From Azolla caroliniana (taxonomy: Eukaryota; Plantae; Polypodiophyta), in the NCBI GenBank assembly GCA_043228905.1, contig JBHGNT010000340.1:1-33140 (forward strand): DNA of 33,140 nt, read 5' to 3'. Shown in pieces: positions 1 to 24,844 of this stretch; the stretch's first letter is position 1, and the number at the start of each line of letters is the position of its first letter. The notes beneath the pieces are model-generated. The model was not told the DNA's origin. It ran no database searches and worked only from the letters and a program-made list of their open reading frames with translations. The translations under genes were made by a program, and so were the position numbers.

Positions 1-20
1 AACTTTTCTGTCTATTGATT

Positions 21-80
21 ATCTTGTGTATTGTTGTGTCTAATCTTGTGTATTGTGGAATATTTTTGTGTATTGTTGTT
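21..80 (+). repeat. Three imperfect copies of (ATC)TTGTGTATTGTTG, ~22-bp period
   Basis: Seen directly. It is followed by a T-rich tract and TTTAG at 121-125, which may be the acceptor of an upstream intron. Confidence 0.55.
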
Positions 81-134
81 GCCCATAGCCATCTTTAATA
101 CTTGTTTTTTTTTCTGGAAATTTAGGGTTTTAAC

Positions 135-3100
135 ATGTCCAGCCAAATGGAAGGGGAAGAAGGGTGTTTAGAATTACCCCTCAATGATCATAAGGATAGG
201 GATGATGCTATCAGGACACAACAAGCCATACGAAACTATTGGGCAGAAAAAAAAAGGAAACATCGTCAATTGTTGAAGGATACGAAAGCCACACTCAATA
301 AAGGTAAGGATAGTTTAGTTGAGAATGTAAGTAATGCGACTACCATCATAGAGAGAAAGGTTGTAGACTATTTCAATTTTCAAACCAAGCACATCAGCAA
401 TGAAGAAAAGAAGGTAGTACTTTATGGAATATGTAATGATCCATCGATAAAGGACTTAGTTGATTGTGATGGTCTTAATGCAAATATATCATCTATTTTA
501 GTAAATAATCTTCGTAATAGTTTCGTATCCATGAGCAGGTCAGAAGATGATCTTGTCTTAAAAAGGTCTAGTCTAATGATGTTACTTAATAGTGATGTTG
601 ACGATATAAACATCAGTGAGCTATCTAAGGTAATTGGTGTTAGTAGAAAAACAGTGTACAATACAATGAACCGTATAATTTCCTCGGGTGAAGGAACTAG
701 TCTACTAAAGCTAACTACAAGATGTAAGCCAATGACACCCATAACATTTGAAATCAAGGATGTAATCACAATGTTTTGGACTAATGAGAGTAGGGTTTCA
801 CCCAATAAAAAGGATTTATGCAAGAAACGTGTTGGAAGAAATCAATACGAGGAGCATCCCATTCATCTTCTTGATGTACCTCAGGTATTTACATTTATCT
901 CAACATTTGTTTTGACTCTACTCGGAAAGTTAATTAGCTCAGTTAGTAGAAAAGCTAATTAGCTTATCAGTTACATTTACCTCAGTTAGCTACTAGGATA
1001 GCTACTACATAGGTAACTGGCTACTCTCAATAGCTACTACCATGATAGCTAATTAGCTATTCTCAATAGCTAATTTAGGTACTACCAGATAATTAGCTGT
1101 ACTGGTAGCTAGTTAGCTATCATGGTAGCTAGTTAGCTATTTCGTTATTACCAGCTAATTAGCTACTAGGAAAGCTAATTAGCTACTAGGAAAGCTAATT
1201 AGCTACCATGATAGCTAATTAGCTACTAGGATAGCTACTACATAGGTAACTAGCTACTCTCAATAGCTACTACCATGATAGCTAATTAGCTATTCTCAAT
1301 AGCTAATTTAGGTACTACCAGATAATTAGCTGTACTGGTAGCTAGTTAGCTATCATGGTAGCTAGTTTGCTATTTCGTTATTACCAGCTAATTAGCTACT
1401 AGGAAAGCTAATTAGCTACCATGATAACTAATTAGCTTACTAGGATAGCTAATTAGCCACCGTGATAGCTAATTAGCTACTAGACCAGCTAATTTGCTAC
1501 CATGATAGCTAATTAGTTAGGACAACTAATTAGCCACCATTATAGCTAATTCGCTACTAGACCAGCTAATTAGCTACCATGATAGCTAATTAGCTACTAG
1601 ACCAGCTAATTAGCCACCATGATAGCTAATTAGTTACTAGGACAGCTAATTAGCCACCATGATAGCTAATTAGCTACTAGACCCACTAATTAGCTACCAT
1701 GATAGCTAATTAGCTACTAGACTAGCTAATTAGCTACCATGATAGCTAATTAGTTACTAGGAAAGCTAATTAGCCACCATGATAGCTAATTAGCTACTAG
1801 AGCAACTAATTAGCTACTAGAGCAGCTAATTAGCTACCATGATAGCTAATTAGCTACTAGAATAGCTAATAAGCTACTAGAATAGCTAATTAGCTACTAG
1901 GATAGTTAGCTAGTTCCGAGAATAACTAATTCCCCTTTATTACGCAGGTCGATTTATTTATTAGGTTCAAACGAATGCATCCAACTATCAAAGTTCAACT
2001 ACGAACATTCGAGTCTCTTAAGCCACACTTTGTGAGATGCTTAAAGGATCGATACACATGTTGTTGCATTTACCATGTACAGATGGGTTTTCTGAAGGAC
2101 TCTGTTAATCTACTACGTCACCATAGCGCATCCCTAACTAATATAGTTTGCACATGTGGGTGCCCAATCTGTCGATCAAGCCCGCAAGAGGAGTGTAAAT
2201 TATCTGAGCACGTTATCTCTTCCATGAGTTATTTATTAGATTCAATATTGTGTCTGAGAGAAACTGACGCTATCTTCCATATTCATAACTGTGTCATGGG
2301 TTTATGTCAAGATTGTGGCCCTACTAGATTTAGGTGGTGTCCAAATGAATTGAGTAGTGAAATATTGATCTCTGTGAAGTTATTTGAGTCAGTGAACACC
2401 AATTTCGAAGGAAAGGTGTGTAAAAGAAAGGATCTAGTTCGAAAGATGCTTAAACCAAGGGATTTGGTGTCTCTGTTTGTAGTATCTCTAGGAAAGTTCA
2501 TTAAACACAACTTCATTTATTCATGGCAGGCCCATCAGTTTAAGACTTGCATATCTGATTTCCCAAATGATGTAGTAGTCTCAATAGTAGATTTCGCAGA
2601 GAATTATACTTTCAAGCAGCAGAATGAAATTCAATCTATGCATTGGTGTTCAGTTCAGGTAACCATTTTTGTGCACATAACATATTTTCGAGCTTCAGGT
2701 GATGTTAAAAAAGTAATTCATTTCTTTATTTTCGATGATAAGAAGCATGATACCTTGTTCGTCCAACACTGTTTTAAGTTACATTGGCAGTGGTTATTAG
2801 CTCAACGTTTGGAGCTTACTCAACATTGGCTCTGGTCTGACGGAGTTGCGTCACAATTCAAAGCTCGACGTCCATTTTATTTTGTGGGGAGGTATCCTGC
2901 TATAACAGGTTTGGAGATGAGATGGAATTTTTTTGGGTCTGGCCATGGTAAAGGTGAACATGATGGTGCAGGGGCTGTTATAAAGCGGGCACTTACCCAT
3001 GAACAACTAAAGATAGATGGTGTGCACATGAATTGTGCATCACATGTAGTTGAATTTTTAAGAACAAATATGTCAACGAGTGCCACATGTGTTTATTCCT

Positions 3101-3789
3101 CGCAAGTCCGAGATATCAAACGTGAATTTTGGGAAGTGATGATAGATGAAGTAAATAGGGAGAAGACCTGGGAGTGCCAAGGAATTCCCGAATTGCAATC
3201 TCTGCATGTTGTTCGCAGTTATTCCAGGTTGGATGGTCATTGTATTGCGATTAGAGAATTGACTTGTTTTTGCTTCCATTGTGTGCATGGAAATTGGAGA
3301 TATTGTCTAAACAAAGCATACATTCAGAATTGGGAGTATCACGCTCTGAATGATAAGGAAGCAGTCGATGGAGAAACAGGGCAGAATGTTGACTTCACAT
3401 ATGAGGGACTTGGAGATACTTTGAGTGATGTCCTGAACGTTGGGGATAACTTCGCTGTAAATGCTGAAGAAGGCAATTCAGAGGGTGTCGATTTCTATAT
3501 ATTAAAGTGCACGGTTAGTAAACAGTGTGCAAGGCCGAATATTGTAGATGCTTGGGGAAATTTTGTATCTGCCGGGACATTCTACATCGAAGGCATTTTT
3601 TATGCAAAACTAGATGACTATGAATATGTGTACAGGCTGTTAGAAGACAAACCAGCGGCGTACATGTACTCTCATTTGGTCAGGTGCATCAATGTCCCAA
3701 TGTCAGAATACAATAGCTGCTCAGGTTTATACACTGTTGGTGCTAATGTGTATGAATGTATTTACAATAGTATGCCATGGAATTTGTAG
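135..3789 (+). CDS. Spliced DDD transposase, Sola (probably Sola2)-like; exons 135-884 and 1948-3789, 863 aa
   Basis: Donor CAG|GTATTT at 884/885, branch-like ACTAAT near 1925 and acceptor TACGCAG|GTC at 1947/1948 join the two ORFs in phase 0. Exon 1 has an HTH (ISELSKVIGVSRKTVYNT). Exon 2 has Cys/His clusters (CCCIYH, CTCGCPIC, CVMGLCQDC), catalytic motifs DFAENY, WSDGVASQFK and GHGKGEHDGAGAVIKR, and a C-terminal CFCFHC. The subfamily call is from recalled motifs. Confidence 0.8.
930..1930 (+). repeat. Intronic satellite of ~20-bp units built on the palindrome TAGCTAATTAGCTA, with 40-bp dimers and a 233-bp-offset duplication
   Basis: Units AGCTAATTAGCTACTAGACC and AGCTAATTAGCTACCATGAT alternate over ~1440-1900. 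Block ~986-1187 is repeated at ~1219-1420. The array fills intron 885-1947. Confidence 0.95.
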
Positions 3790-3964
3790 CTACAAGTAGC
3801 ACTTACCATGTTCTCTTGTAAAACAAACATGTATTTCGCGAAAACAGTTAAATAAATTCGTTTGGAATCAATTTCTTGTATACAGTCTGCTTTCTGTGCT
3901 TCTTTCTCAATAAAATCATGTCTTTTTTGTTAAGTTTTAAGTTATAAGTTATAGCGAAATAGTC

Positions 3965-4025
3965 ATCAGTAGCTAATTAGCTGTACAAATGCAGCTAATT
4001 AGCTGTCAATAGCTAAATAGTCATC
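3965..4025. repeat. Short cluster of AGCTAATTAGCT motifs between convergent 3' ends
   Basis: GTAGCTAATTAGCTG and GCAGCTAATTAGCTG are seen directly. Confidence 0.8.
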
Positions 4026-4235
4026 AATAGCATGAAATCAACAATCTACAACATATTCCTCAAATTACACAGTAGATAAGTACAATGGGAACAAGTAATT
4101 AAATTCTTCACTGAATAATGTCATCTCTTTACATATTTATAAATTACCATTGGAAATGTCTACAAATCTCCTATAAACAGCTAAGCTCTTGCTAGTCAGT
4201 GGAACGAGTCTACATATATTATCCGCATATCGAGC

Positions 4236-5192
4236 TCAGTATGGAGTCCACAACCATGCACCTAGTTGGCAGCTCACTGTTTGCACCAGGTACTGTTCAG
4301 GCATTTCCTCGGGTAGAATGAGACAGCATCTCCGAATATTGAAGTAGTGCTGAAAATGTTCTGTATCCAAAATCAATGTATTGTCGGCATTATATTCAGG
4401 CCAAGTAGCCCAAAAATCAGAAAGTCTCTTGAATCTTGCAGCTTCCATTTGCTCACAATTTTCTTGTGCCCATTGACGTTTAAAACGACTTCGCCATTTT
4501 GGGAAGAATCTTGCCAAACACTTCCACACATCTGATTTTGGTTTTTCACTCCAAATAAACAAATCAAAGTATTGCACAACCCACTCTAGAAATTGATTCG
4601 CGTCCCTCCTTGGCTGCATATATCTCACACTCATCAAGACTTTATCAAGCTCCAAGATCAAGGCTCTTCTTTCGACTTCTAGTGGTTTAGGTTTCCATTC
4701 CTGAAATTGAGCCGCTGTTACACCATTTTCTGGTAGAATACGATCAATCTCAATCAGCTCAGGTTCGGCCGACACAACTGGCGTCCTTTTCCTCTTCAAA
4801 CCCCTAGTCGACTGTGTTGGGCTTGGCTTCACATTCTGGTGCTCTTGTTTTGTCGACTTAGTTATCAATCCTTGGATTACCTCGGTGCATGTAGCTACTG
4901 ATCTGCTCGATATCAGTCCACTGGTATCACATGCTGCATCTACCTGCAACACCAAGTCATCCGTGCAACATGCTTGATCAACTTGTGTGACCAGATCACT
5001 TGTGTCAGTTGCTACATCTACTTTCAAGATGGGGCCCTTTAAACATGCCGCAACATCAACAGTATCCACACTGCCATTGGCCTTACGAGCAATAGAATCA
5101 AACCCTTTAGACTCTGCAACATCAGAAAACACCATCATATTCACACACACAAAGTAACTAACAGTCTCACAAAACAATATCCTGAACATCAA
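4236..5192 (-). CDS. FCP1/NIF (CTD phosphatase-like HAD) domain protein with degenerate catalytic motif and N-terminal 13-aa repeats
   Basis: ALILELDKVL (cf. LVLDLDETL), FLEWVVQYFDLFIWS, WAQENC and FKRLSDFW..PEYNADNTLILD match the NIF/FCP1 pattern. KRKR is a likely NLS. A probable acceptor TTGCAG|AG at 5114/5113 means the true 5' exon is unresolved. The TGA at 4236-4238 may be a CGA>TGA change, since the frame stays open to 4137. Confidence 0.7.
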   Translation of the reverse strand: MMFRILFCETVSYFVCVNMMVFSDVAESKGFDSIARKANGSVDTVDVAACLKGPILKVDVATDTSDLVTQVDQACCTDDLVLQVDAACDTSGLISSRSVATCTEVIQGLITKSTKQEHQNVKPSPTQSTRGLKRKRTPVVSAEPELIEIDRILPENGVTAAQFQEWKPKPLEVERRALILELDKVLMSVRYMQPRRDANQFLEWVVQYFDLFIWSEKPKSDVWKCLARFFPKWRSRFKRQWAQENCEQMEAARFKRLSDFWATWPEYNADNTLILDTEHFQHYFNIRRCCLILPEEMPEQYLVQTVSCQLGAWLWTPY

Positions 5193-5362
5193 AGAGTTTC
5201 AGTCATAGAACAACACTCTTCAAATTATTTTGGAAAAACATCATAGAGTTCCATTACATAATGTGGATCAAGCAACAACCAATCTGAGGTTTTACTTGTC
5301 CAATAGGATAGTAAAACTTCATAAAACCCTAGCAAAATCCCTAAGCTAAAAATCATATCCAA

Positions 5363-8300
5363 CTAAACAATATTTCGCTCCACTACGTCTGGGCCCCTTG
5401 ACCGAGTAACTGGTCTTGTTCCCGATCGTGGCCCCTTCTTCAGCCTTTTTCTGGTTGGTTCCCCATTTAGCCTTGCTTCTTTCACCCAATGCGCAAGTGT
5501 GTCCTCCTCCGACAACCTTCCCATCGCCTCAGTAGCTAATTGCACATCAGCCGTTTCTTGAACTAGCTTTTCAAGTACAGAGGGATCTGTTTGGACATTT
5601 TCAGTAATTGGGCTCGGTGGGGTGGAATCAAGGTCTTGAGATTCGAAGAAATGTTGCATCAAGTGTTCATAAACACTGTTGTTGTGAACCTCAGTTTTAC
5701 ATGTTGTTTCCACTATTTCATGGCATTTCACATCGTTGCCTAATTCAGTACACTGTTCCAAAAGAATAGGGTGGAACTGATCTGAAGGAGATGTGATAGC
5801 AGGACTCTTACTTTCAGCCACGTTGGCAGCAGTATCCTCATCTGTTGCAGCGTCATCAGCACCAGACACATCATGTGCCGTCCTTAATCCACAAGATTCT
5901 ACAATAACATGGCAGCTATTTAGGATAGCTAATTAGCTACTTTACTAAACTATGGTAGAAGCTAGGATAGCTAATTAGCTAGTACGATAGCTAATTAGGA
6001 TAGCTAATTAGCTAGTACGATAGCTAATTAGCTACTTTACTCAACTATGGTAGTAGCTAGGATAGATAATTAGCTACTATGGTAGCTAATTAGCTACTTG
6101 ACTCAACTATGGTAGTAGCTAGGATAACTAATTAATTAGCTACTTTACTCAACTATGGTAGTAGCTAGGATAACTAATTAGCTACTATGGTAGCTAATTA
6201 GCTACTTTACTCAACTATGGTAGTAGCTAGGATAGCTAATTAGCTACTTTACTCAACTATGGTAGTAGCTAGGATAGCTAATTAGCTACTATGGTAGCTA
6301 ATTAGCTACTTTACTCAACTATGGTAGTAGCTAGGATAGCTAATTAGCTACTTTCTCAACTATGTAGTAGCTAGGATAGCTAATTAATTAGCTACTTTAC
6401 TCAACTATGGTAGTAGCTAGGATAGCTAATTAGCTACTATGGTAGCTAATTAGCTACTTTACTCAACTATGGTAGTAGCTAGGATAGCTAATTAGCTACT
6501 TTACTAACTATGGTAGTAGCTAGGATAGCTAATTAGCTACTAGGATAGCTAATTAGCTACAATGAAAGCTAATTAGCTACTTTCTCAACTATGTAGTAGC
6601 TAGGATAGCTTATTAGCTACTAGGATAGCTAATTAGCTGCTAGTAGCTAATTAGCTACTAGGATAGCTTATTAGCTACTTTACACAACTATGGCAGTAGC
6701 TAATTAGCTACTATGATAGCTAATTAGCTAGTAGGATAGCTAATTAGTTGCCAGTAGCTAATTAGCTACTAGGATAGCTAATTAGCTAGTAGGATAACTA
6801 ATTAGTTGCTAGTAGCTAATTAGCTAGTAGGATAGCTAATTAGCTTTTTTACACAACTATGGTACTAGCTAATTAGCTAGTACCATAGCTAATTAGCTAC
6901 TAGGATAGCTAATTAGCTACTAGGATAGCTTATTAGCTACTTTACACAACTATGGCAGTAGCTAATTAGTTACTAGGATAACTAATTAGTTGCCAGTAGC
7001 TAATTAGCTAGTAGGATAGCTAATTAGCTTTTTTACACAACTATGGTACTAGCTAATTAGCTAGTACCATAGCTAATTAGCTACTAGGATAGCTAATTAG
7101 CTAGTAGCTCATTAGCTGCCAGTAGCTAATTAGCTAGTAGGATAGCTAATTAGAAAAGACTTAGCTTATTAGCTACAGTATGGTATACCTGTTAGTTTTC
7201 TCCACTCATTTGGTAGAGATGTACTGCAATCTCCCAAACAGAATGCAGCAATTCGACAGGCATGTTGAAAACAAAGCAGATGGTATGTGTGGTTGCAAGG
7301 TTGTAGGTGAACCAACAAAGACGCAGTTTTGTCCTCCACACCTAACCCGCAAGCGATGCAACGTGCTTGAACTGTCAATAAATCATTTTCTGGTTCTGCT
7401 TCATTTGGTAAGGGACCAAGAATGTTCAGGTCCAAATCTTGTCTGGTCCTTACCATTCCCTCCACAAAATGTAGCTGCTTCTTAAGGCAGCTAACTACCT
7501 GTTCTTGATGAATGTATTGTTCCTTCAACGCAACAGAGAAATTTACTGATTAATTATTCTTGTTGTTGAAAGATACACCAACTTTGCTCAGGAATCATTT
7601 ACTTACTTGAAGCTTATCCAAATTGTAATCTGCAACAGTATTTACACCTAGAAGGTCCAGGTTCATTGAAAGAACCTGGATCTCTATTTGCAGTTCTATT
7701 TTACGTTGGGGATCCAGTGGCCCCTCTAATTCAAGCTCCTGTTGCGCAACCTATTCCAGATAATGCTTGATTAGCACATTTTACCCTTAAATTTATTTAT
7801 AACACAATCACATACCAGCAAAACAATAGTTACCTGAATCTTATTTCTAATTGTTGTAACAACGGAAGTAACTTTGCTCTCCATTGCAGAAGCCATTGTG
7901 GCTTTCTCTAAATCAGTCTTAAAAAATGCCAATGTCTCACAGGCTTCATGGACATTTTTTAGCATATAGCTAACCAATGTCTCACCTGTATCATCGACAT
8001 TGGCTTTCCTTGGGTGTTGGTGTGGTGTATGACCCCGGTCTTGCTGGGAGTCGATAGTTGCATCAACAACTGCCATGCTCCAAAATCTATCTACTTTTTG
8101 TGCCAAGGTCCCCATCTTTCGGCATCTTTTTACCGATGCCTCACCATAGACTGCCCAAGCTACCCTATACATTTCAGGGTCTCTGGATTCCTTCGTTGTT
8201 TTGCAGTACTCATATGCAAATGCTCTAGCAAATGAGACTGGCAACTCATTGTTGACTGGGATCTCCTGATGAACTTTCTGGTGCAGTCTCATGCAGTCAT

Positions 8301-9170
8301 CGTACAAGTCGGCTCGTACATGCTTCAGCTTGACCTTGCCTTTGACTCTAGGCACTGTATATACTGTCATCCAGTCTACATCACTGATCAATTTATCACT
8401 TAGGATAGCAGGGTCAACACCCTCGAGTGACAGACCATAGGTGTTGTGGAAGTCCTCCTTTGTCTTGCAAAATTTTGCGAAGTTTAGCACTCTCATATAC
8501 GGAGGAACGAGCCATTTGAAATATCATTTCAGAAATCAGAAATAGTGCAAAATCAGAATATGTGAGAATCAGAAACCCCAATCAACAACAACAAAAATGG
8601 TGCAAAATCTTTAACTTAGCAAATCAGAAACCCTAATCATAATTTGTATTCAGAAATTTGAAATCAGAAACCCTAATCAAAATCTGTAATTAGAAGTTTG
8701 AAATCAGAAACCCTAATCAAAATCTGTAATCAGAAGATTGTAACCAGAAACCTTATTAAGAAATTCTAATCAGAAATTTATAATAAAAAAACCTAATCGG
8801 AAATTTCAATTAGAAACCCTAATAAAAAATTTCTATCACAAACCCTAATCAGAAATCCTAAACAGAAATTTATAAACAAAAACCCTATTCAGAAATTCTA
8901 ATCTGTAATCAAAATTTGTAACCAAAAACCCTATTCAGAAATTCTAATCAGAAATTTATAATCAAAAACCCTAATCAGAAATTTCAATCAGAAACCCTAA
9001 TCAGAAATTTCAATCACAAACACTAATCAGAAATTCTAATCAGAAATTTATAAACAAAAACCCTAATCAGAAATTTCAATCAGAAACCCCAATCATCACT
9101 AAAGACAAGATTAACCACAAAAAAAAGTAATATAAACACACCTGTTGCTACTCCCCGATTTGCGAGACAT
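5363..9170 (-). CDS. Multi-exon RING-H2 / coiled-coil protein; exons (9170-9142), 8515 or 8496-7834, 7750-7607, 7522-7189, 5898-5363
   Basis: GT-AG introns 7833-7751 (83 bp, phase 0), 7606-7523 (84 bp, phase 0) and 7188-5899 (1290 bp, phase 1) join three listed ORFs plus a 48-codon exon into a 558-aa frame from ATG 8496. RING-H2 C-x2-C-x17-C-x-H-x2-H-x2-C-x10-C-x3-C lies at 7360-7226, and the basic NLS-like RKRLKK is near the C-terminus. The first micro-exon is tentative because its acceptor reads AA. Confidence 0.75.
5913..7175 (-). repeat. Second TAGCTAATTAGCTA satellite filling the 1290-bp intron of the RING gene
   Basis: Units GATAGCTAATTAGCTACTATGGTAGCTAATTAGCTACTTTACTCAACTATGGTAGTAGCTAG and shorter 17-20-bp variants are seen directly. 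Confidence 0.95.
8525..9095. repeat. Tandem array of ~13-bp subunits (AATCAGAAACCCT / AATCAGAAATTTC) containing telo-box AAACCCTA
   Basis: More than ten AAACCCTA(AT)-like copies are interleaved with CAGAAATTT units. The array lies within predicted intron 9141-8516. Confidence 0.9.
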
Positions 9171-9649
9171 CCTTATATGGGACTCCAAGGACTTCGCCCT
9201 ATTCGATTTTGGGGAAATATGAATCGGCACCAAAGTTCAAACAGTAGTAAAAAAGAAAAAACAAATGTTTGGGGTTTCTGTAATTGAAACATACCTGGAC
9301 GATGATCGAGCGGGTTCTGTGTTGTAGCTCTCAATCTGCAATGTCGATTTTCTGCTGTTGCGGGAGCTACGTCTACGTTCGTGCTCTGAGTACTCCATCT
9401 GCATTCAAAATCAGACTTAGGCAAAACAGGAAATTGATGACATTGAAGTCGACCTTAGATGATGGTGTTATTCCCCAAGTTCCACTACGTCTGAAACAGA
9501 AGTTCAAATATTTGAGTTTTTTCATAAATTAGTTTTTCAAATATTTGATTTTCCCACAAAAAAGACTAGCTAAAAAAATAGCTAATTAGCTATGGCCATT
9601 TTAGTAGCTAATTAGCTATAATAGTGTTTCCACTCACATGCTTTTACGC

Positions 9650-9917
9650 TAATTCGACTTTATCGGCTACTTAACAATAAGGCCTTCACTTAATACACAC
9701 GTAAGATATAACAATTAACACAGAACAGTAATCAATACGTGACGATAAAACAAGAAGCTTATATTAATTCTCCGTTAAAGTTTTACATTGTAACCGGGCC
9801 TTTATATAGGTCACCAGTGTTGTGTACAAAACGGTGCCAACCGGCACCTGTTCGGAACCGGTCCGGATCCGGATCGGCATACCGATTCCGGTCCGTCCGT
9901 TCACTACATAATTATAC
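9650..9917 (-). repeat. 3' LTR (shared portion; may extend to ~9965)
   Basis: 268-bp ungapped match to 17339-17606 with 13 mismatches by hand count (~95%). TATA-like CCTATATAAAGG on minus. Confidence 0.9.
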
Positions 9918-10175
9918 TCTACTCTACTTAATTAAAATATATTCCGAATAACCATCCCATTCACATTCTGGTCTTTACTCTTTTGCCGGCCGGGTAACAC
10001 ATGGCACGCCCGTGGGACAGTACCTTGTATGTCGAATCCCACTATTCGGCCCTTAGCCTTCATCCAAGATATCCAGAATACTCTGCTCCAGGGTATCCAA
10101 TGGTTGTTCAGAACTCTGTTGTTGTGGTTGTGGCTGCTGTTGGTGCAGTTGCGGCTGCTGTTGTGACTCCTTCGA

Positions 10176-12972
10176 CTATTGCTCCTTAGATGGCGTCTGT
10201 TCGGCTCCCGGTACCGGTGGTTGTGGCGGTGATTCCTCCGTTAGCTGCTCCGCCAGATTTGACTCTGGTTGACTCGCCCCAGCCTTGTCTTCGTTCGGTT
10301 CTTGCTCCGATGATGGCTCCTCATCGCTGAGGTTGACGGTCGCCGCCTGCTTTGCTTCTTCTCTCCGTAACCTGGTCTGTTCATAGCTTTCAAACTGGAT
10401 TTGAGCATCCAGTCGATCATCATCTAGCTGTGCTACAAGTTGTCGGACCACTGTTGACTGCTCCTCCGCCAGAGTTACAAAATCTTCGGCTAACTCATCT
10501 CTTACGGCGGTGAAGTGCTCCTTCGTTAGCATGTAGCAGTCGTCGCCATCCTTCTTCCGGTTTTCCGCATCCGCCCGTAGCAACTGGAGCTCGGTTCTGT
10601 GCTTTGCTCATTTGTCCCACCATTGTGCGGAGCTTTCGTCAATCAAGCGTTTGGTCTTGTTCCTCCATGCCTGGACAATGAACTAGATCCGCTCCAATCC
10701 CATATTCGATTTGTCCTCCGCGGCTTGCCGTTCGTCCTTCAACTGCTTGATCAGTGCCACCGTATCCACCTCCTGCTCCCGGTAATGTGACAATTGGGTT
10801 TGATAGGTGTTCTGCAGCCTTTGCAAGACCATCGTCGCTCTTTCCTTCTCTTCATAATGTTGCTTATGGAGCTCCATCCGTTCTTGTGCGGCTTCCTCCA
10901 GTAGCGTGGTTCTTTCAACCCGTTCCTCCGCTAGCCCCGTCTCAACTCGATGCACCTCCTGCCGGAGCTTTGCCATCTTCTCCTGTTGTTTCTAATGCTC
11001 CATATCCAAGTGCTTGTAGTCCCGGTGCAGGTGCTCAAAATCATCGGTCTTCTGCTTCAGCTTTTGGTTGAGTTGCCGGTGAGCGCGGTCTTCCCAATCC
11101 TTCTGTTGACGGAGTTCTTCTTTAAGTCTTTCGATCTCTGTTTCCGCCATCCGTCGAAGCTTCTCCTTTTCTTGCAGCGCCTTCTCTTTCTCCTCCTTCA
11201 GCCAGTCATAGGCCTGATGCCCTTTCCGCAGATTCTCTTCTGCCCGACGGAGATTCTCAACAGTCTTTTGTTGCTCTTCTTTTGCCGCTTTCTTCAAGTC
11301 CCACTCTCGGGTGCGTAATGCTTCCTGTGCGGCCAGTTCATCTCTCAATTTAGCAAGCTCTTTTGCTTGCGTCGCCACTATCTCCGGGACTGGGTCCGTC
11401 TTCGGGGTCTTATTGCTATGTACAGGTGTCAGGGTTTCTTTATTCTGTACATCGACCGGAGTCACCGGTGCTTGGAGCTGTGGTCCGGTTAAGGCCATTT
11501 TGGCCAATTCTTCTGTGGCCAGGTCCAAGTCTTGTTCTAGGCTCCGGATCCTTGACCGAGTCATTTCTAGTTCTCCGGTTGTGACGATCAACCGGTCCAT
11601 TTGCACTTTCTCTTCCACCTCTATGTAGTGTACCACTCCGGCAATCTGTTCTCCAATCCACCGGAGCCATTGGCTACCGGTGCCCTGTTGTTGCGTCTTC
11701 CCAGAGGGTTGGCTGTTGGTGTCGCTGGCCAGTGGTCGGTTTTGTCCGGTTGCGTCGAGCTGCAACTCTGGCTCTTGTTGGTGACCACTTTGCCTTTCTA
11801 GTTGCGGCTCCGTTGGCCGCTCTGCCTCTGAATGCTCTTGGCCTGCCGGTGGGGTAGGCAACTGTACTTCCGGCGCTTGCATTTCGGGTCTTGCCGTATC
11901 CTGACCCGCCGATAGAGGTTGTTGTGCAGGGAGCTCTGTGACCGGTTCTGTCCGAACCGGTTCCAGTTTCGTCCTTGGTGCGTGCTGCTCAGTGCGGGGT
12001 ACATGCGTTCTGGACATCCTTCTTTGGGTCCGAATGCTCCCCGGCCTATTCGGAGGTACTTGCCTTCTGGCGCCGCTAGAGGTGCTCTAACGGTTCCTCC
12101 TCTGCTTCCTCCTCCTGAGTCCCGATGTTGATTTTTGCTGCCAAGGGGTCTGACGCTTGTTGAACCGGTCGGTGAAGCCTGATCTTGATTGGCCGTACCG
12201 GTGGCTCCTCCTGCGTTTCCACCTGCCGCTTCCTATTGGGACGCTTCTTTGCCGCCAGGTCCGTTTCAGCCGCCTTCCCTTTGGTTGCCTTAGAAGCCAA
12301 CAACTGCTGCCGTTTCGAGGCCGTTTTCGGGGTGCCTTCGGTTGTTCTTCCCCGCTTCGTGGTCTTGATGGGTTCGATAGGTGGCGCCAATAGGGTGAGC
12401 CATTGCGCCACTGCCGTCCATATCTTCCGACCTTCCTTGCCTCTGACAGAGTCGATGGCCGCACAGAGGCCATCCGCAAACAGTACCGCCCAGTCCACCT
12501 TTACGCCTTCATATGTGGCTATGATTAAGCTGGCCCGGTTCTGAGGCATGCACGGGGGTCGAGGGTATACATGTCCAAATTCATGGAGCACCCGGGCAAT
12601 CTCTCGACAGAGTGGGTCTTCGCCGCCCTGTGTCCGGTAGGCCTTGCCCTTGCTGGCCAGAGAGTATTCCCTAAAATATTTTCGGAGCTGTTCCGGGGTA
12701 GGGTTGTCGATAGTGAAGATTCCCCCTTTCAGAAGGCCAATCAACACATGGATGGCCTCCTCAGTCATCAGCTCCGTATCGATTTCTTTGACTATCTTCT
12801 CCGCCTCCCGGTGCGGTGGCGCCTTCATGATTGTGAGGAAACCTTCTAACCCATGTTGCCTTAGCCACTTCTTGGCTGCTTCAGAGAGTGCTTGGCAGTC
12901 CATGGCTTCATCGAGGTCAGTGAGCACTGGTGAGGGTTGTGTGTGAGGAGGCTCTCGTCTGCTGATCTTCAA
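10176..12972 (-). pseudogene. Extra ORF of the Gypsy element: N-terminal globular domain, low-complexity linker, long coiled coil
   Basis: ORFs 12017-10992, 10976-10683 and 10583-10176 are one frame broken by TAG stops, and 12972-12076 is offset by one frameshift. E/K/Q/R heptad-rich. IATYEGVKVDWAVLFADGL is reminiscent of Athila-type extra ORFs. Confidence 0.7.
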
Positions 12973-13273
12973 TCGCCTGTCTGCGTTTGTGCTCCTCTAT
13001 TCGCAAAATGTGAGGGTTTCTATGTGGCGGGGGTCTTCTTGTTGCATGTTGGTGCCTGTTTTTTTTCTTATCTGCGCGTGGTGTACTAAAGTAGAATGTC
13101 CTGCCATGTGGTGGCGGTTTAATACCCTATTAATAGCCCACTATGTACCTTTACAAAGTGCCTGTTCACTCCTTGTTCTTGCATGTGTCCGTTCACCCCT
13201 CGCCCTTGCATGATTTACTTTGATTTGATTTGATTTTTTTAAATTTTTATTTTTAAAGATAACAATGGTTTTG

Positions 13274-16200
13274 TTAATTCGCATCTGGTCCTATTGGACC
13301 CCTATCCGGATTGTGGTCCTTGCCGGCCATTGGACTTCTTGCCGTCGCGTCATTCTTGTTGTTTACCGGCTCATGCTCCCTCTTACCGGCTTCGCGCTTG
13401 CCGATTGCTGAACATGTTGCCGTCTCTTCCGACTTACCAGTGTCCGGTTCTGTGTCGCCCTTTACTTGTTCAAATGGGTTTCTTGGCATGGGTCCATGGT
13501 ATGGTTTGAGTCGGAACCCATTGAACCATTTACCCAGAACCTCACCGGCGAGTGTCCCTAATTGGTAGGAACCGTTGAACTCACGCGTAATCCAGTATGG
13601 TCCGGTCCACCGAAACCGTAGCTTTCCCGGCATCTTACCCATCCGGGTCTGGACCACGAGTACCGGTTTACCGATTCCGAACATCTTTTCGTTCCCTTTT
13701 CGTTGACGATCCACGAACACTTTCCTTCGCCGCTGCTCTAGTTCTAGGTGCATGATGCTGGCTAGCTGGTGTTCTTCCAATTTGCACAACGGGTTTAACC
13801 GGATAGCTTCCGATTCCTTCTCATTTAGGCGTTCCCGAATCTGTATTCGTAAACTCGGTACCTGGAACTCTACCGGCATCACTGCTTCAAATCCGAATGC
13901 TAGGCGAAACAGTGTTGTGCGGATACTTGTCTTATATGCCGTTCGGTAGGTTCAGAGTGCATTGTGCAGCTTTGTATCCCAATCCGTCTGGTTCTCATTG
14001 TCGATTTTTCGCAGGATGTTCTGTAGTGTTTTATTTGTTGACTCTGTTTGTGCACCACCGCATAAAATGTCGTCAAACTTTCCACTACTTGCCCTAAGAA
14101 GTGCCCACCTTGGTCACTTATGAGCTCTATCAGACATCCATATCGGCACTAGATGCATTCATATAAAATTTTTGCTGTGGATGCCGCGGTGTTGTCGCGT
14201 AGTGCTTTGGCTTCCACCCATTTTGTGCAGTAATCCGTAGCGACGATCACGTACCGGTTGCCAGTTCTCATGGCCGGTGGTTTGAATGGACCGACAAAAC
14301 CTAGCCCCCATTTCTGAAATGGTTTTACCGGTAGCACGAGCTGGTGAGGCATTCTGGCTTGTTCGGTTGGTTGGCCCATTTGTTGACATAGGTCGCATTC
14401 TTTAGCGTACCGGATTGCATCCTTCAATGTTGTCGGCCACCATAGTCCACTCTGCCATATTTTCCTTGCCGTAGTGTCTCCGGCATAATGTCTTCCAGCC
14501 ACGCTGCAGTGTACTTCGCGCAATATTATTCCCTTTTCGTCGCTGCGCACTACACGACGCCATATGCCATCTGCGCCTTTGTGTTACAATGTGTCTTGTA
14601 ATAGACAGAAGTGCTGGCTTTGAACCGCTAAGCGTTTCCTTTCGTCTTTGTTCATCTCCTCCGGAGGTAAGCCGGTGCTCAGAAATTGGTGCATGTTGGT
14701 GAGCCACTTGTCTTCTTCTGCAACCGTACTATCGGATGTCATTTCTGCCATGACTCCAAACAGCTCTGCATCCAGAAAGTCGTCTGGGACTCCGTCATTG
14801 GTTTCGCCGGAATCTAACCGGCTTAAATAGTCTGCTACCGCATGTTGTATGTCGGGTCGGTGGAATATCTCGAACTCGAATTCTTGCAATAGTAACGTCC
14901 ACCGGGCCAGCTTACCAGTGAGTGATGCTTTGGACACAAAGTAGAGAAGCGCCGAATGATCTACGTGAAAGGAAAATTTCCTTCCCAACAGATAGTGTCT
15001 AAACTTGGTGACACTGTAGATCATACCCAAAGCCTCCCTTTCTATCGTGGAATAATTACGTTCCCCTTGGGACAGCTTCCGGTTGGCATAATAAACTGGC
15101 CGGTACCATTTCGGCTTTGTAAGTTGCATCAGCGCGCTTCCGATTGCGATGTCGGACGCGTCAACGAACACATGGAACTCGTTAGACCAATCCGGAGGTT
15201 GCCCCACCGGCGCTTGTGACAACAGTACTTTTAGTGCCCGGTAAGCCTGGTCTTCTGTGTCCGTCCATCGAAACGGTGTTCGATGTACCGTGGCATGCAG
15301 TGGTGTAGCCATGTCTGCTAGATACCGGAGCATTCGGCTATGCCACCGAATTTGTCCTAAGAACCGGCTTAGTGCCTTTGCCGTGGCTAGTGCCGATGCC
15401 TCCAGGATTGCTTTTACTTTGTCAGGATCCACTACGATACCGTCCTTGCTCACTATGTGGCCTAGTAATGCTCCGATGTTTACTCCGAACACACATTTTG
15501 CCGGGTTCAGGCTTAGTCGGTAACCCCACATTTCTCCAGACATAGTCGGAGGTGCTGAAGGTGATCCCCTTCCTGGCTATAAACAACGAAGTCGTCCAAG
15601 AACACCTACATGAATGCTGGAATGAATTCTCCGAAAATCTCCTTGATGATCCGTTGGAAGGTTGCCGACACCGTTTTCAGTCCGAACATCATCACTACGG
15701 CAACAAAGACTCCCCATTCGGTGACAAAAGCGGTTTTCTCCTGGTCGGCATCCGGATCTGATTATAGCTGCTGAAACCGTCCAGAAAACTGTAGACCTCA
15801 TGACCGGGGACCGCATCTAGGACTCCATCCGTGAATGGAAGTGGGAAGGCGTCCGTTACCATAGCCGCATTCAATTTCTGGTAGTCGACACACACTCTTA
15901 TCTTACCGGTCGGATGAAGCCCACTCTTAGCAACTTGTCGATTTTTTCTTTGACTTTTGCTGCGTAATTCGGGTTCAACCGGTAATGTTGTTGCGCTACC
16001 GGTTTGGCATCTTTAATCAGATGTATCTGGTGTTGATACAACTGAGGATCGAGTCCCGGCATGTCCTCGTAGGACCAGGTGAACACATCGTGAAATTCTT
16101 TTAGGAGTGTGATCATTGCCGTTTTGTTCTCCGGGGTCATTTCCTTGGCGATGTGCACCGGTCTTGTGTCCTCTGTGGTACCTAGGTTTACCTCTTCTAG

Positions 16201-17203
16201 TTGGGATGCTTTCACGCGTTGCAATACTGCCATTTCTTTTTCCAGTGCCTCCTGTGCTTGCCATAATTCCCGGATTGCTTCTTTATTCGGTTCCTCGTCG
16301 GTCCCGTCCGGTTGCAGTACGTACGGTGATACTGCTTCGGCTACATCAATCTCGAACAGAGGTACGATCTTCGGATTTTCCTATAAGTATTGATCGACCT
16401 CTTCGTCCGCCAATCCTTCCAGCATGTTGACACATTCCGCATACAACGGCATTGATTCCTTGCTAGTATCGGATCGTGGTTGAGTTGGTACTCGTACTTT
16501 CGTTTTTCCACGCCGGAACGTAATTATATTCTTCCTCCAGTTTTGCTTTATGTGTGTTGTTTTTAACCAAGGGCGTCCCAACAATAGTGGGTAAGCTCCC
16601 TGAGCCTGTAGCTAGAGAACTACTGCGGAAATGCGAAATGTGTGACCCCCGATGGTCACTTCTAGATCACGTATTAATCCGGTCGGCCGTACTGAGCTTG
16701 TGCGCCATCCAAAGCCAAAATGGGCACGGTTCCTAGTCCTGGATTCCTAGCGTGTTACATGTTCGGAGGTTGATCACGTTCACGCCGGATCCTCCATCGA
16801 TAATCATGCCCGGTAGCTCATTTCCTTTCACAATGGTTGTGATTGCCGGACTCCTCGTGTCCACCACTGTCGGTCCTTCCTCCGGATTCGAAAAGAATGC
16901 CGGAGCCGGTGGTGTGTTAGCTGCCGTCCTTCCGGTCTTCAGTCCTTTCGTGAAGCGTGGTACCAGTTGCAACAGCCAACCTAACGCTTGCCATGTTGGG
17001 TTTTCGGGTTGCCCCGGGCTGGTGAGCTCTTCGGCATTCTCCTGTTGTTGTTCGAGCTCTACTGCATTCTGCTCATTTGCCTTCTTCACCCATTCGGTTG
17101 CCTGCTTCCGGATGGCTTCTTGAGTTTCCCACTCCGTGGCTTTGCCTTTTGATCTTGTAGTGACTTGTTGTATGTCCGCGACTTCCGCGTCTACCATGTT
17201 CAC
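13274..17203 (-). pseudogene. pol: Gypsy pol (protease, RT, RNase H, integrase), disrupted
   Basis: IIDGGSGVNVI and LGRPWL (protease); CVDYQKLN, LDGFSSYNQI and VFLDD near 15590-15605 (RT); VFVDASD and NYSTIEREALG (RNase H); H..H..CDLC, WGLGFVGP with D>G, and RWTGPY (integrase). Multiple stops and frameshifts. Confidence 0.95.
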
Positions 17204-17306
17204 CTTTGGTCGCTTGTCGTAGCTCTTCGCCGAAAACCGTGTTAATCCTTAGGGCCGGACAATGGCCTAACACAAGGTGTCTCCGGAAGACACTTCACCA
17301 AAGGGG

Positions 17307-17606
17307 TGTTACAACGAGGTAACTTAAGACACAACGATTAATCCGACTTAATCAGCTACTTAACAATAAGGCCTTCACTTAATACACGCGTAAGATATAA
17401 CAATTAACACAGAACGGTAATCAATATGTGACGATAAAACAAGAAGCTTATATTAATTCTCTATTAAAGTTTTACATTGTAACCGGGCCTTTATATAGGT
17501 CACTGGTGTTGCGTACAAAACGGTGCCAACCGGCACCTGTTCGGAACCGGTCCGGATCCGGATCGGCATACCGATTCCAGTCCGTCCGTTCACTAAATAA
17601 TTATAC
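17307..17606 (-). repeat. 5' LTR (outer end truncated)
   Basis: Matches 9650-9917. It ends ...GTAACA on minus at 17307 and is followed by CCCCTT-TGGTGAAG, a possible PBS. Confidence 0.85.
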
Positions 17607-20490: not shown

Positions 20491-20679
20491 GGCGAGAAGT
20501 TATGAGCATTTTCATCCGCAGTCATCTTTGCCCTACGGTTCCTCAAACGGAAGGTAGATTTTGAAGCCCTAAATCGAGTGAAAGGTACATTCTCTCTCCT
20601 TCCCTCTCTGTCTCTCTCTTCCCGTAGGGTTTGTCCCTACAATGAGCCGAGATCACCAACAAATCTCGATTCTAATGCA

Positions 20680-21463
20680 ATGGACAAAATGCTGATGAGT
20701 CACTTGATTTCTCTTCAAGAAACAATAAACAAGCAAGGTGAAGAGATTAGGATGTTAATGAAAGAGAATGCTAAGCTCCAAAGTGTTGTCATTGAGAATG
20801 AAAGTCTTAAACAAGTGGTTGCAAAACTTCAAGAAGAGATTCAAGAATGTAAAAGAGCGTCTTTTGAAACAAATGAGCGCCTTAACAAGATTGAGTTAAA
20901 GGAAGCATTAAAAGAAGAAAAATTGGACACGATGAGGCGGGATGTAAGTGAGATGAAAAATGTATGTACAACGAAGTCATGGGCCGATGTATGTGGTGGG
21001 GATGTGCTAGCAAACTCATCTAATATGCATGTGATGCATCAAGAGAAGAATATAGAAAGCATAGATGTCCGAGAATTGAAAGAACGTGAACGACGATCAA
21101 AGAACATTGTCGTCCGTGGGATTAAAGAAGAGAGTATGGAAACACCAGCATCCCTTGGAAAGGCCATTGGTGAAATTTTTTAGCATGCATTATGGGATGT
21201 CAGATGTGAATGTATATGGGGCACACCGAGTTGGGAAACATGGTGTTACTCGCTCCGGAGAAAGGCCTATTGTATGCACAATGACAGATGATACAAAGCG
21301 GTGGATCATACTCGAAAATAGTTGGGTATACCTCAAAGGTACACAATGCTTTGTGAGTGAAGATCGTACAATCTCACAACAAAATGCTCGTCGTAAAGCA
21401 TATGAAGAAAGATTAAAAAATAAGGTTAAGGATGTGCCTAAAGATGGAAATGTAGCCAAATAG
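20680..21463 (+). pseudogene. LINE ORF1 (coiled coil + RRM-type), frameshifted at a T-run near 21176-21181
   Basis: A coiled coil followed by SWADV and RERRSKNIVVRGIKE continues in the next frame as AHRVGK..RPIV..FVSEDRT..RRK. Confidence 0.85.
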
Positions 21464-21469
21464 GGACAC

Positions 21470-24400
21470 GTGATCTATGAGACTAACCCACGCCTTTTAC
21501 GACTATGCTTTTGGAATTGCAATGGATACCCATGGAATGCGGGATTTGGCATAGATGAGTTCACCGATGACTCAGATATCACACTTCTTGTTGAAACATG
21601 GGAGCATGATACTCAAAGGATTCAAGGTTTAGGAAACTATAATGTACACTCTTTGATATGGAAGAAAAATCCAAGACAAAGAAGAGGACAAGGAGGGGTG
21701 ACATGTTTGATTAAGAAGGAAATAGAGAAATATGTGTCAATCATAAAAAATGATGAAAATAAATGCTACATATGGCTCAAAATAGAAACACCTAATGATT
21801 TGCCCACTTTTGTAGTTGGATGTTACATTCCTCATCAAGATTCTAACTTTTATGCTTGTTTGGATAAAGATAAACCGTTTGCCAATCTAGAAGATGATAT
21901 TGCTTATTTCAAATCCAAAGGGGAAGTTATTGTCTTTGGTGACATGAATGCTCGTACAAGAAGTTTCCAACTTGATTCACAAGAATCGTTCATGCCACAT
22001 ATCTCAAGGATGCAAGAGGATATGCAAATGTATAACCGCTCTTCTAGCGATGAAAAAGATCCGGACCAATTTGGGAAGTTACTCCTACAAATGTGCAATA
22101 GTACCGGATTGCTTATTGCAAATGGTATTTCCTTATGGCCCAACACTAATGGTTTTACATGTAGAAAACACAACGGAAATAGTGTGATTGACTATGTGCT
22201 ACTTTCCGAAGGTATTTTGGATCGTATACATAAATTCTCACTTGGTGAATGGACACCGGAATCCAATCATAGGCCTTTATGTATTGATCTCAAATGTATG
22301 CATAGGTTTGATTGTGAGAAGGCTATTGAAGATAATAAACAACCACACTTGAGCATGAACCTTAAGCGAGCACCCATGTATTCCAAGATGGTTGAGGATA
22401 TGTTACAAATGACAAAGATACAACATGGTGCCACACTAGAATGCAAATGGGAAGCTTTCAAGAAAGTCATTCTCTCATGTACAAACAAATGTTTTTCGAC
22501 CAACCGCACATCTTGGAAATGCACCAAGAAACTTAGGAAAAAATGGTTTGATAAAGAATGTCGTGAAGCTCGAAAGTGCCTTATGGTTTTGGATATAGTT
22601 AAGGATAAAGAGAATTACCAAAAACATTTTCATGAGTATAAAAGGCTTATTCAAAGAAAGAGAAGAATATGGGAAATTACTCAACAATTTATCCAAACGC
22701 AAGAGAAAGCACATGCATGTGCTAAATTTTGGGGAAATCTAAAGGGGAAACGTGTTGAGAGTTATGGTGACTTAACTCTTCACGACTTGTCTATGCATTG
22801 TAAGAATTTATATGAGTTATCTCTTGCCGGAAAGATGATGTGTTATGGTTCTCTTTCACATATGCCTCCCTTCTTTACAATTGAAGATATATGCATAGGA
22901 CTTAAGAAATTGGCCTCTCGAAAGGCAAGTGATCTTCAATGTATAAAGGCTGAAATGCTCAAATGGACAGGAAAGGAAGCACATATATGGATAAACGATA
23001 TGTTTAATGATGCATTGCAACATGGTATGCCGTACGATTGGACTACAAATTGGATCAAACCTTTACATAAAGGTGGAGATATAAATAATGTAAACAACTA
23101 TCAAACCATGATGGTTCGCTCATTAATGGCAAAACTATTTGGATGTATAATGGAATCAAAGATAAGTGTATGGGCTGAAAAAAGTGGTAAGAGAGCTTAT
23201 GGACAAGCTGGCTTTCGGAAACACCATAGCACCATTGATCACCTTATCACCCTTCGAGTATTAATGGAGGAAAGTCGCCTTAGAGGTAAAGGTTTATATT
23301 GTTGCTTTGTAGACTTCAAGAAAGCTTTTGATATGGTACCTAGTGAGCATCTTTGGAGGCGAATGGAAGAACTTGAGGTGCCAAGTGAATATATGCTTGC
23401 AATTTCCCGAATTTATGAGAAGGTTATATGTTGTGTGCACATGAGAGATAAACTTTCAGATTTTTTCAAAAGCACTATTGGTGTTAAGCAAGGATGCCCA
23501 CTCTCACCAACACTATTTGGTCTATGCATTGATGAATTGGAAGAAATGGTTACCAAGTTTGCAAAGGAAGAATGTGTTGAAGAAGTTGCCATTGGGAATG
23601 TTGTGGTTATGCTTTTGCTATATGCAGATGATGTAGTGCTTTTTGCAAATACTTTTGGAGATGCACAAAAGCTTATGAAGGCATTGGAAAAAATTTGCAT
23701 GCATACTAAATTAAGTGTCAATAGCACTAAAACAAAGATTATGCTTGTGAAGAGCCAAAAAAGAGATAAACCATGCATTATGTACAACAATGAGCCACTT
23801 GAATGTGTGGAAAGCTTCAAATATCTTGGCCTTGAAGTTCCTTCAAATCATAGATGGAATGAATGTGCTACACGCCACTTAGAGGCGGGTAAGCGAGCAT
23901 ACTATTCATTTGAGAACACATGCAATCTTGGAGATATTAAGTGTTGGGTCCTCAAGAAATATCTTTTCGACACTTTGGTGACACCGGTTCTTCTCTATGG
24001 GGTGGAAGTATGGGGCAGTAGCATCCCTAAATCTATGTGGAAAGAGTTTGAAAATGTCCAAAAGCATTTTCTTACCAAGTTTCTACAAGTTAAGAAACAA
24101 ACGCCCTACACCCTCCTCCTCCTTGAGACGGGATCACTTCCAATTGAGATCATGGCCATGGAAAGGGTTGTTGAATACATGCTTAAGGTTCAAAAAAGTC
24201 CCTCACATTGACTTCCTAGAATTGCGTGGGAAGCAAGCAAAAAGATCCAAAAGACGCATAAAAGCAAAATTTTGTGTTCCGGTTGGATGCAAGATATAGA
24301 AAAATGGTTTGGTAGATGGGATGCGAGACACTTGCTTCATGATGCATCATTAGATTCCTCTGTGAATGAGGCATTTTTGCAACGCCAATGTATCATGACA

Positions 24401-24844
24401 TGGGACAAATGTGGAGGCTCACGCTTCACACATTATGCTACACATGTTGCACTTAACTACAAAACCATATTCTTTGCGGAACGAGGAAATCATACACATC
24501 CATACATGTTAGAACCCATACCGTTATCTGCCATTCGAACCATTGCTTCCATGCGACTTAGCTCACATGCATTGCGATGTGAAAGAGGGCGTTGGGGCAC
24601 AAGTGATGAGAGTGGTCGGTTATGCACACTTTGCCCTAAACAAGTTCGCGAGTCTGAGTATCACACTTTGATACAATGCTCTACCTTTGATCATATTCGA
24701 CCACGCTTTCCACATCTCTTCGATCAAGCCCAATCTTTGCATGAATTCCTCTCACAACCATAATGTGCACTCTCGATTGCAACATTCATTGGTCAAGTTC
24801 TTGAACATCGAGAGTCACTAGTCACTTTCACACGTATCACGTGA
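21470..24844 (+). pseudogene. LINE ORF2: AP endonuclease, reverse transcriptase, C-terminal zinc knuckle; two in-frame stops
   Basis: FWNCNG, VETW, GDMNAR, SVIDY and SNHRP (APE); QAGFR, FVDFKKAFD, GVKQGCPLSP, LLYADD and KYLG (RT); RLSSHALRCERGRW..CTLC..EYHTLIQC. Stops at 24209-24211 and 24761-24763. Confidence 0.93.

What the first reader, a model, noticed from the sequence alone, without database searches (positions are those of the whole stretch)
135..9635. Composite Sola-like DNA transposon with RING-H2 and FCP1-like cargo and motif-packed introns: candidate TE-encoded anti-silencing system
Seen: a stop-free spliced transposase, two convergent cargo units with NLS-like basic stretches, and one palindromic motif arrayed in introns of both the transposase and RING genes, between the 3' ends and near the putative terminus. 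The motif marks 1-9620 as one unit. Known: Arabidopsis VANDAL (Mutator) elements carry VANC proteins that bind short motifs amplified as tandem arrays in the element's non-coding DNA and relieve silencing. Sola elements, as I know them, are described as transposase-only. Inference: this may be an analogous system in another superfamily, using a ubiquitin ligase and a CTD-phosphatase mimic. These genes are also far less decayed than the neighbouring retroelements, though that could simply reflect younger age.
Basis: partly seen in the sequence, partly recalled or inferred. Interest (0 to 1): 0.85.

Follow-up and report, generated by a model that had tools for sequence, protein, structure and literature searches.

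The report
Sola2 transposon with conserved RING partner
This is a many-copy cut-and-paste transposon, likely from a fern, whose relatives also carry a second gene for an unnamed domain plus a RING finger and often their own repeated DNA motif; that protein likely binds the motif and would help the element resist host silencing.

Summary
The observation largely holds. The spliced transposase (863 aa, no stops) carries the motifs of the published Sola2 alignment. All 42 copies of TAGCTAATTAGCTA lie in non-coding DNA of the element. The right end is at 9649, not 9635: the element cuts a Gypsy LTR there, so it is younger than that neighbour. The left end and target duplication are outside the window.

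The RING is the end of a four-exon gene (unnamed helical domain X, coiled coil, RING, basic tail) that is collinear with a bracken transcript. A related convergent gene follows the transposase in 8 of 15 distinct related loci with enough flank. The FCP1-like module lacks its catalytic motif, has a premature stop in this copy and is optional across relatives.

Six close families each have their own motif, arrayed in the transposase intron and usually also downstream. This layout parallels VANDAL/VANC, but no homology to VANC was found, the transposase is a rival binder, and Sola elements with passenger genes are already known. Identity about 0.9; anti-silencing mechanism about 0.35.

The parts
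135..884 (+). Transposase exon 1 (250 codons; basic stretch, weak HTH)
   Evidence: Pfam HTH_11 E 7e-5, under cutoff; 95% identical in L001
885..1947 (+). Transposase intron with 20-bp-period palindrome array (986-1905)
   Evidence: GT..AG phase 0; TRF; same intron and array in L001
1948..3789 (+). Transposase exon 2, Sola2 catalytic core (DFAENY, SDG..QFK, HGKG..DG) with Cys-rich parts
   Evidence: invariant columns in 36 homologues; motifs match published Sola2 alignment
3960..4030 (.). Short motif cluster between the convergent 3' ends
   Evidence: many loose ends here in other copies
4236..5113 (-). NIF/FCP1-like exon, predicted pseudo-phosphatase (ELDKV for DxDxT), basic stretch KRKR, premature stop at 4236-4238 in this copy
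   Evidence: Pfam NIF E 3e-7; alignment A4; base at 4238 differs from about 99% of laid depth
5363..5898 (-). Gene A exon 4: low-complexity tail ending in a basic NLS-like stretch
   Evidence: spliced model; similar tail seen by eye in L003 and L002
5899..7188 (-). Gene A intron 3 with the second palindrome array (29 exact copies)
7189..7522 (-). Gene A exon 3: end of coiled coil and C3H2C3 RING variant
7607..7750 (-). Gene A exon 2: coiled coil
   Evidence: long helices in the model of homologue P0093
7834..8523 (-). Gene A exon 1: domain X (about 140 aa, mostly helical, net basic, no Pfam family); true start uncertain, first in-frame ATG at 8496
   Evidence: 137 homologues; model pLDDT 95.9; conservation
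8533..9095 (.). Second, unrelated array (AAACCCTAATCAG-rich, 13/40-bp period) in the 5' region of gene A
9579..9618 (.). Two subterminal motif copies, 31 and 57 nt inside the end
9637..9649 (-). Right terminus, GCGTAAAAGCATG on the minus strand, like GGGTGAAAGCATG ends of related families
   Evidence: matrix rank 2 of 66,256; LTR breakpoint; depth fall
9650..9653 (+). Predicted 4-bp target duplication TAAT (left copy outside the window)
   Evidence: present once at the uninterrupted sister LTR, 17339-17342; inference

Best explanation
This is a high-copy Sola2 cut-and-paste transposon whose relatives also carry a second, convergent gene (domain X, coiled coil, RING); that protein likely binds the element's own palindromic motif and would keep the family's copies active against host silencing. 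Shown: Sola2 motifs, right end, gene A structure, its presence beside distantly related transposases, and family-specific arrays in non-coding DNA. Inferred, step by step: domain X is the DNA reader (folded, basic, conserved); the coiled coil makes a dimer or oligomer suited to a palindrome repeated every 20 bp; the RING recruits ubiquitin machinery to remove or modify silencing factors at bound copies; the arrays expand in introns because more sites mean stronger protection; the NIF module is an optional, catalytically dead add-on. Identity about 0.9; this mechanism about 0.35.
For: Sola2 motifs. Gene A: 567 codons without a stop over three GT..AG introns, 30% identical over 421 aa to a Pteridium transcript protein, E 6e-48. 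X or RING hits on the opposite strand downstream in 11 of the 21 loci with at least 3 kb of flank, 8 of 15 after merging near-duplicates, 5 of them not used as profile seeds; their transposases are 36-45% identical to the window's and lie in other supported clades. L011 shows transposase, RING, coiled coil, X-like domain and terminus in the window's order. Each close family has its own motif: L002 ACCATTAA 12 intron + 18 downstream, L003 GGTAATTA 21 + 4, L007 AGTACCAA 10 + 8, L005 6 + 1, L006 19 + 0; cross-family counts are 0-2 apart from 8 for the overlapping L003 8-mer in the window. VANC target motifs likewise lie in tandem repeats in introns and differ between related copies (PMC5735166). 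Summed depth is similarly high over transposase and cargo bins in two DNA runs.
Against: No Pfam hit to DUF1985 or PMD for the window's domain X, nor among the 25 families listed for 57 homologues. Arrays do not track gene A strictly: L011 has the whole gene but its transposase intron has no 8-mer above 3 copies, and L012, L051, L052, L060, L070 share no intron motif with downstream DNA. The family motif also sits 56-74 nt inside the left end in L002, L006, L022, L023, L065, as transposase sites would, and a transposase alone can activate and demethylate its copies (10.64898/2026.08.24.746577). The element's coding parts have CpG observed/expected 0.3-0.6 against 0.93-1.17 in the Gypsy neighbours, and 30 of 81 differences from L001 are C>T or G>A, so the lineage has been methylated. 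7 of 15 distinct loci show no cargo within the flank held. No listed contig bridges transposase and cargo within this family. The RING has C-x3-C at its last pair (C-x4-C in homologues), not the usual C-x2-C.
Confidence: 0.35

Rival explanations
1. The palindrome is the transposase's own subterminal binding site, amplified inside introns; gene A is a transposition helper (nuclear import, synapsis, target choice or turnover of the transposase) rather than an anti-silencer.
For: Family motif 56-74 nt inside the left end in five loci and 31/57 nt inside the window's right end; the L006 motif AGGTGAAA resembles its terminus GGGTGAAAG. Weak HTH in transposase exon 1; exon 1 changes faster than exon 2 (dN/dS 0.82 on 19 changes against 0.28). 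Transposases can regulate their own copies.
Against: 40 of 42 exact copies are 2.5 kb or more from the right end, in introns; the largest array is inside gene A, and the L002 downstream array lies just upstream of a similar last exon.
Confidence: 0.3
2. Gene A is a selected accessory factor acting on host chromatin or repair without reading the motif; the arrays are passive satellites that grow by slippage in the only places where they do no harm.
For: L011 has gene A without a clear intron array; many loci hold unrelated tandem repeats of 40-260 bp; a second unrelated array lies at 8533-9095.
Against: The same motif recurs in places kilobases apart within a family and changes as a set between families, which independent slippage does not predict.
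Confidence: 0.25
3. The RING and NIF parts are captured host gene fragments carried passively (Pack-type), or separate repeats nested by chance.
For: The NIF module was found in only 2 of 80 loci and is broken in this copy; no contig bridges transposase and cargo within this family.
Against: Same order and orientation beside transposases 36-47% identical; intact four-exon frame; X + RING + NIF order also in two Adiantum gene models.
Confidence: 0.1

Closest known systems
Sola2 DNA transposons (PMC3627910: passages, Additional file 10 part 1 of 2, Additional file 11)
   Same: Catalytic-core motifs, N-terminal F..SR..P.KKD and CxCxxH motifs; short imperfect ends; predicted AT-rich 4-bp duplication; can carry a passenger gene (Fanzor1)
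   Different: Intron in the transposase, a conserved X-coiled coil-RING gene, optional NIF module and family-specific internal palindrome arrays; plant lineage
VANDAL/VANC anti-silencing MULEs (PMC5735166: abstract and section 9; PMC13547354: passages)
   Same: Accessory gene with globular domain plus coiled coil; short motif amplified in tandem arrays in introns; motif differs between families
   Different: Sola2, not Mutator, transposase; no DUF1985 hit; RING and pseudo-phosphatase absent from VANC as described; binding and demethylation untested here
PMD proteins MAIN/MAIL1 with PP7L (10.1101/2024.09.27.615353: passages)
   Same: Transposon-linked helical domain paired with a DNA motif and a phosphatase-like partner
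   Different: No PMD hit in Pfam; the phosphatase-like part here is HAD/NIF type; PMD-C genes studied are host genes
Spm TnpA and AtMu1 transposase as self-activators (10.64898/2026.08.24.746577: abstract, section 7)
   Same: Element-encoded protein that binds family-specific motifs and activates cognate copies
   Different: There the sites are terminal and the binder is the transposase or derived from one; gene A shows no transposase similarity
Sola1-1_Ec32 of Ectocarpus (PMC12477816: passages)
   Same: Sola element with an opposite-strand accessory gene proposed to act on chromatin
   Different: Sola1; cargo is a ParB-like DNA methyltransferase

Membership tests
Sola2 | Transposase core motifs (DFAENY..QDEIQS.HW; SDG..QFK; W.FF..HGK..DG.G..K) | tested here: met
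   Compared by eye with Additional file 10 of PMC3627910; invariant in alignment A1. No profile or tree against Sola1/Sola3 was run.
Sola2 | Short terminal inverted repeats | tested here: inconclusive
   Right end at 9649 resembles left ends of nine related sites and the right end of L011; the left end is outside the window, and no locus gave both ends with a duplication. GRG start for Sola2 is recalled, not from a call.
Sola2 | 4-bp AT-rich target-site duplication | tested here: inconclusive
   TAAT follows the end and occurs once at the sister LTR; 4-mers beside related ends are AT-rich; the left copy cannot be seen.
VANDAL/VANC | Mutator-type transposase | tested here: not met
   No Pfam transposase family in 36 homologues; motifs are Sola2.
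VANDAL/VANC | Accessory protein with DUF1985 domain | tested here: inconclusive
   No Pfam hit; fold searches list no VANC, but I could not check that entry 9LNK is in the libraries.
VANDAL/VANC | Family-specific short motifs in tandem arrays in non-coding DNA | tested here: met
   Window and L002, L003, L005, L006, L007, L008; not seen in L011 and several distant loci.
VANDAL/VANC | Protein binds the motif and demethylates cognate copies | not testable with these tools
   Needs binding and methylome assays.
RING-H2 E3 ligase | C3H2C3 zinc ligands | tested here: met
   Eight ligands present, last pair C-x3-C (C-x4-C in most homologues); Pfam scores under cutoff.
RING-H2 E3 ligase | E2-dependent ubiquitin transfer | not testable with these tools
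   Needs an in vitro assay.
FCP1/SCP (NIF) phosphatase | NIF domain | tested here: met
   30.6 bits against cutoff 21.8.
FCP1/SCP (NIF) phosphatase | Catalytic DxDx(T/V) motif (recalled) | tested here: not met
   ELDKV in the window and E[LI]DKV in all 4 close homologues that cover the site; DLNG in L005, L006, P0179, P0240.
Plant mobile domain (PMD) | PMD domain | tested here: inconclusive
   No Pfam hit; no PMD sequence or model was available for a direct comparison.

The most novel reading that the evidence does not exclude
Sola2 transposons of ferns and probably mosses carry an old, independently evolved self-protection system: a DNA-binding domain of unmatched fold, joined to a coiled coil and a RING ligase, reads family-specific palindromes that the element amplifies in its own introns and strips silencing from its copies by ubiquitination, with motif and reader changing together between families.
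Probability: 0.3. Interest if true: 0.85.

Novelty: new variant of a known kind. Interest (0 to 1): 0.62.

Why it matters
Sequence-specific anti-silencing by transposons is worked out in Arabidopsis (VANC, TnpA, AtMu1). A conserved accessory gene with an unnamed domain, in another superfamily and in seed-free plants, with a ready set of family-specific motifs, gives a direct test of whether such systems evolved repeatedly. Each family offers a matched protein-motif pair for swap experiments. If domain X reads the motifs it is a new DNA-binding family and a possible tool for targeted chromatin change. Even if the mechanism fails, it explains many 'hypothetical' fern gene models as transposon genes.

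Tried and rejected
No assembly is held for this window, so no copy census and no left end. No RNA holder was listed; two guessed-RNA runs gave only scattered short pieces and no splice joint, which says nothing on expression. The complex job for domain X with the NIF domain gave no answer (score 0.00, alignments not used). Fold searches of the X model found nothing clear: Foldseek PDB no E under 0.001, VIA best Z 2.4, viral none; the full-length homologue model gave only coiled-coil hits; this does not show a new fold. The protein atlas could not read two queries and gave no usable hit for P0123. PDB sequence searches gave nothing or only coiled-coil matches. A search for TIR plus duplication in 20 long loci gave only chance-like pairs. 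Viral and prokaryote collections held no transposase relative or terminus pattern. Terminus 9635 was rejected (matrix rank 25 against 2 for 9649). The cargo label is not significantly clustered on the quick transposase tree (49 of 500 shuffles as low; careful tree unfinished; 30 of 80 loci used). The original Sola paper was not held, and Repbase entries could not be seen; they may already note second genes. Paper searches (listings only) showed no Sola element with a RING accessory gene. bioRxiv supplements were not opened and may bear on the PMD/VANC comparison.
Full report
Observation. The transposase gene runs 135-884 and 1948-3789 and splices in phase 0 at GT..AG to 863 codons without a stop. 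The palindrome TAGCTAATTAGCTA occurs 42 times against 0.00 expected: 11 in the transposase intron, 29 in the RING-gene intron and 2 near the right end, with none beyond 9618. None of 74 core 8-mers lies in a modelled exon. It occurs in 1 of 80 related loci, L001, which belongs to the same family.

Family. Pfam has no model for the transposase. Its 92 homologues include proteins of Ceratodon, Calypogeia, Cryptomeria, Taxus, Klebsormidium and animals. Its invariant motifs match by eye the Sola2 alignment in Additional file 10 of PMC3627910 (part 1 of 2 read). That paper gives 4-bp AT-rich duplications and short inverted repeats for Sola2 and shows Sola2 elements carrying Fanzor1 (passages); Ectocarpus Sola1 carries a ParB-methyltransferase (passages). 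Sola elements are therefore not transposase-only. The host is likely a fern: named homologues of the cargo are from Pteridium and Adiantum.

Ends and age. The neighbouring Gypsy element has LTR copies at 9650-9917 and 17339-17606, 95% identical. The second copy goes on for 32 more bases to TGTTACA at 17307, so the first is cut at 9649/9650. Read inwards from 9649 the sequence is GCGTAAAAGCATG. A matrix from ten ends in related loci (consensus near GGGTGAAAGCATG) ranks 9649 second of 66,256 positions and 9635 twenty-fifth; those ends were picked with a pattern partly seeded on the 9635 site, so any bias favoured 9635. The L003 end cuts a LINE frame at the same motif. Summed depth falls from the bin 9603-9645 to 9646-9688 in all four DNA runs (194,459 to 8,477; 60,889 to 2,016; 80,673 to 3,026; 57,938 to 446). 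The predicted duplication is TAAT. The left end is outside the window. The element is younger than the LTR it cuts, which accounts for its better preservation.

Copy number. In two DNA runs 3,674 and 4,667 contigs lay on 1930-5915, with summed depth of 18,500-96,000 and 10,600-32,400 in all 30 bins, against about 30-60 and 7-16 for single listed contigs. The tool warns that this is no copy number and that the runs were found with this stretch; I take it only as many copies with cargo about as abundant as transposase. No listed contig bridges the two.

Gene A. Four exons (8523-7834, 7750-7607, 7522-7189, 5898-5363) join at GT..AG to 567 codons without a stop and align over 421 aa (30%, E 6e-48) with a Pteridium transcript protein. 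The order is domain X, coiled coil, RING, tail. Domain X has 137 relatives, folds with pLDDT 95.9 as a mostly helical unit, has 24 basic and 18 acidic residues with several conserved basic positions and no Pfam family. The RING has eight ligands with a non-standard last pair. The 5' end is uncertain, because homology extends upstream of the first ATG.

NIF module. It passes the Pfam cutoff but reads ELDKV where DxDx(T/V) is expected (motif recalled), as do the four close homologues covering the site; more distant ones read DLNG. This copy stops early at 4236-4238, where about 99% of laid depth has another base and homologues read on. The RING exon can splice in frame to the NIF exon, giving 681 codons in the order of two Adiantum gene models; a separate gene with its own ATG near 5140 is also possible. 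NIF follows the transposase in L005 and L006 only; L002 and L003 go straight to a gene-A-like tail (seen by eye).

Co-occurrence. Of 80 loci (best 80 of 299), 21 hold at least 3 kb after the transposase. Eleven show X or RING on the opposite strand; after merging near-duplicates 8 of 15, of which L011, L012 and L017 were profile seeds and L013, L041, L070, L072, L073 were not. The seed profile links back to the window's X family (best E 1e-7), while the window-family profile alone hits those three only at E 0.3-0.8. L011 repeats the window's layout up to the terminus. L045 has a RING gene on the same strand. On a quick tree cargo-bearing elements fall in several supported clades, which fits an old gene with losses or incomplete flanks.

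Motifs. In the window's clade each family has its own motif in the transposase intron, usually again downstream: L002, L003, L005, L006, L007, L008. In five loci one copy also lies 56-74 nt inside the left end. In distant loci the pattern is weak or absent, and L011 has gene A without a clear intron array.

Mechanism. The layout parallels VANDAL, where target motifs form changing tandem repeats in introns (PMC5735166) and VANC has coiled coils and resembles MAIN (PMC13547354; 10.1101/2024.09.27.615353). I therefore favour domain X as motif reader, the coiled coil as oligomeriser and the RING as effector against silencing (0.35). The transposase is a close rival binder, given the subterminal copies and the AtMu1 result. 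CpG depletion and C>T/G>A bias show that the lineage has been methylated. No step of the mechanism was shown here.

Verdict. A real, many-copy Sola2 family with a conserved, undescribed (in the searches named) accessory gene and family-specific palindrome arrays. It works like VANDAL/VANC in layout but is not a member. An unreviewed AI note on another piece of the same genome reads a similar element the same way; it is a lead, not support. Novelty: new variant of a known kind; interest 0.62.

Noticed in passing
window 9650-17606: Gypsy retroelement on the minus strand with LTRs 95% identical; its left LTR is cut by the Sola2 element. ORF 12076-12996 has a VDWAVLF stretch recalling the end of domain X, but the X profiles did not hit it.
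   Followed up: partly
window 8533-9095: Array rich in AAACCCTAAT (telobox-like; name recalled) in the 5' region of gene A, unrelated to the palindrome.
   Followed up: no
window 20500-24800: LINE with a 915-codon endonuclease/reverse transcriptase frame (21464-24211) and strong CHG depletion (0.31).
   Followed up: no
window 25100-33140: Copia-like gag remnant (25265-25750) and a second, GC-rich Gypsy element running off the right end.
   Followed up: no
window 3111 (run X19): A contig joins sequence like the transposase 5' end (near 200) to position 3111: an internally deleted derivative in a related organism.
   Followed up: no
L060:3000-4250, L062:5390-6850: A distant family has its array (GCCACATGGC) upstream of the transposase rather than in the intron.
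   Followed up: no
L003:7600-8892: Downstream gene made of repeated short exon-intron units, unlike the window's single array intron.
   Followed up: no
P0146, P0147, P0155, P0163, P0164, P0243: Many host gene models fuse domain X to retroelement or unrelated domains; likely mis-joined annotations of nested transposons.
   Followed up: partly
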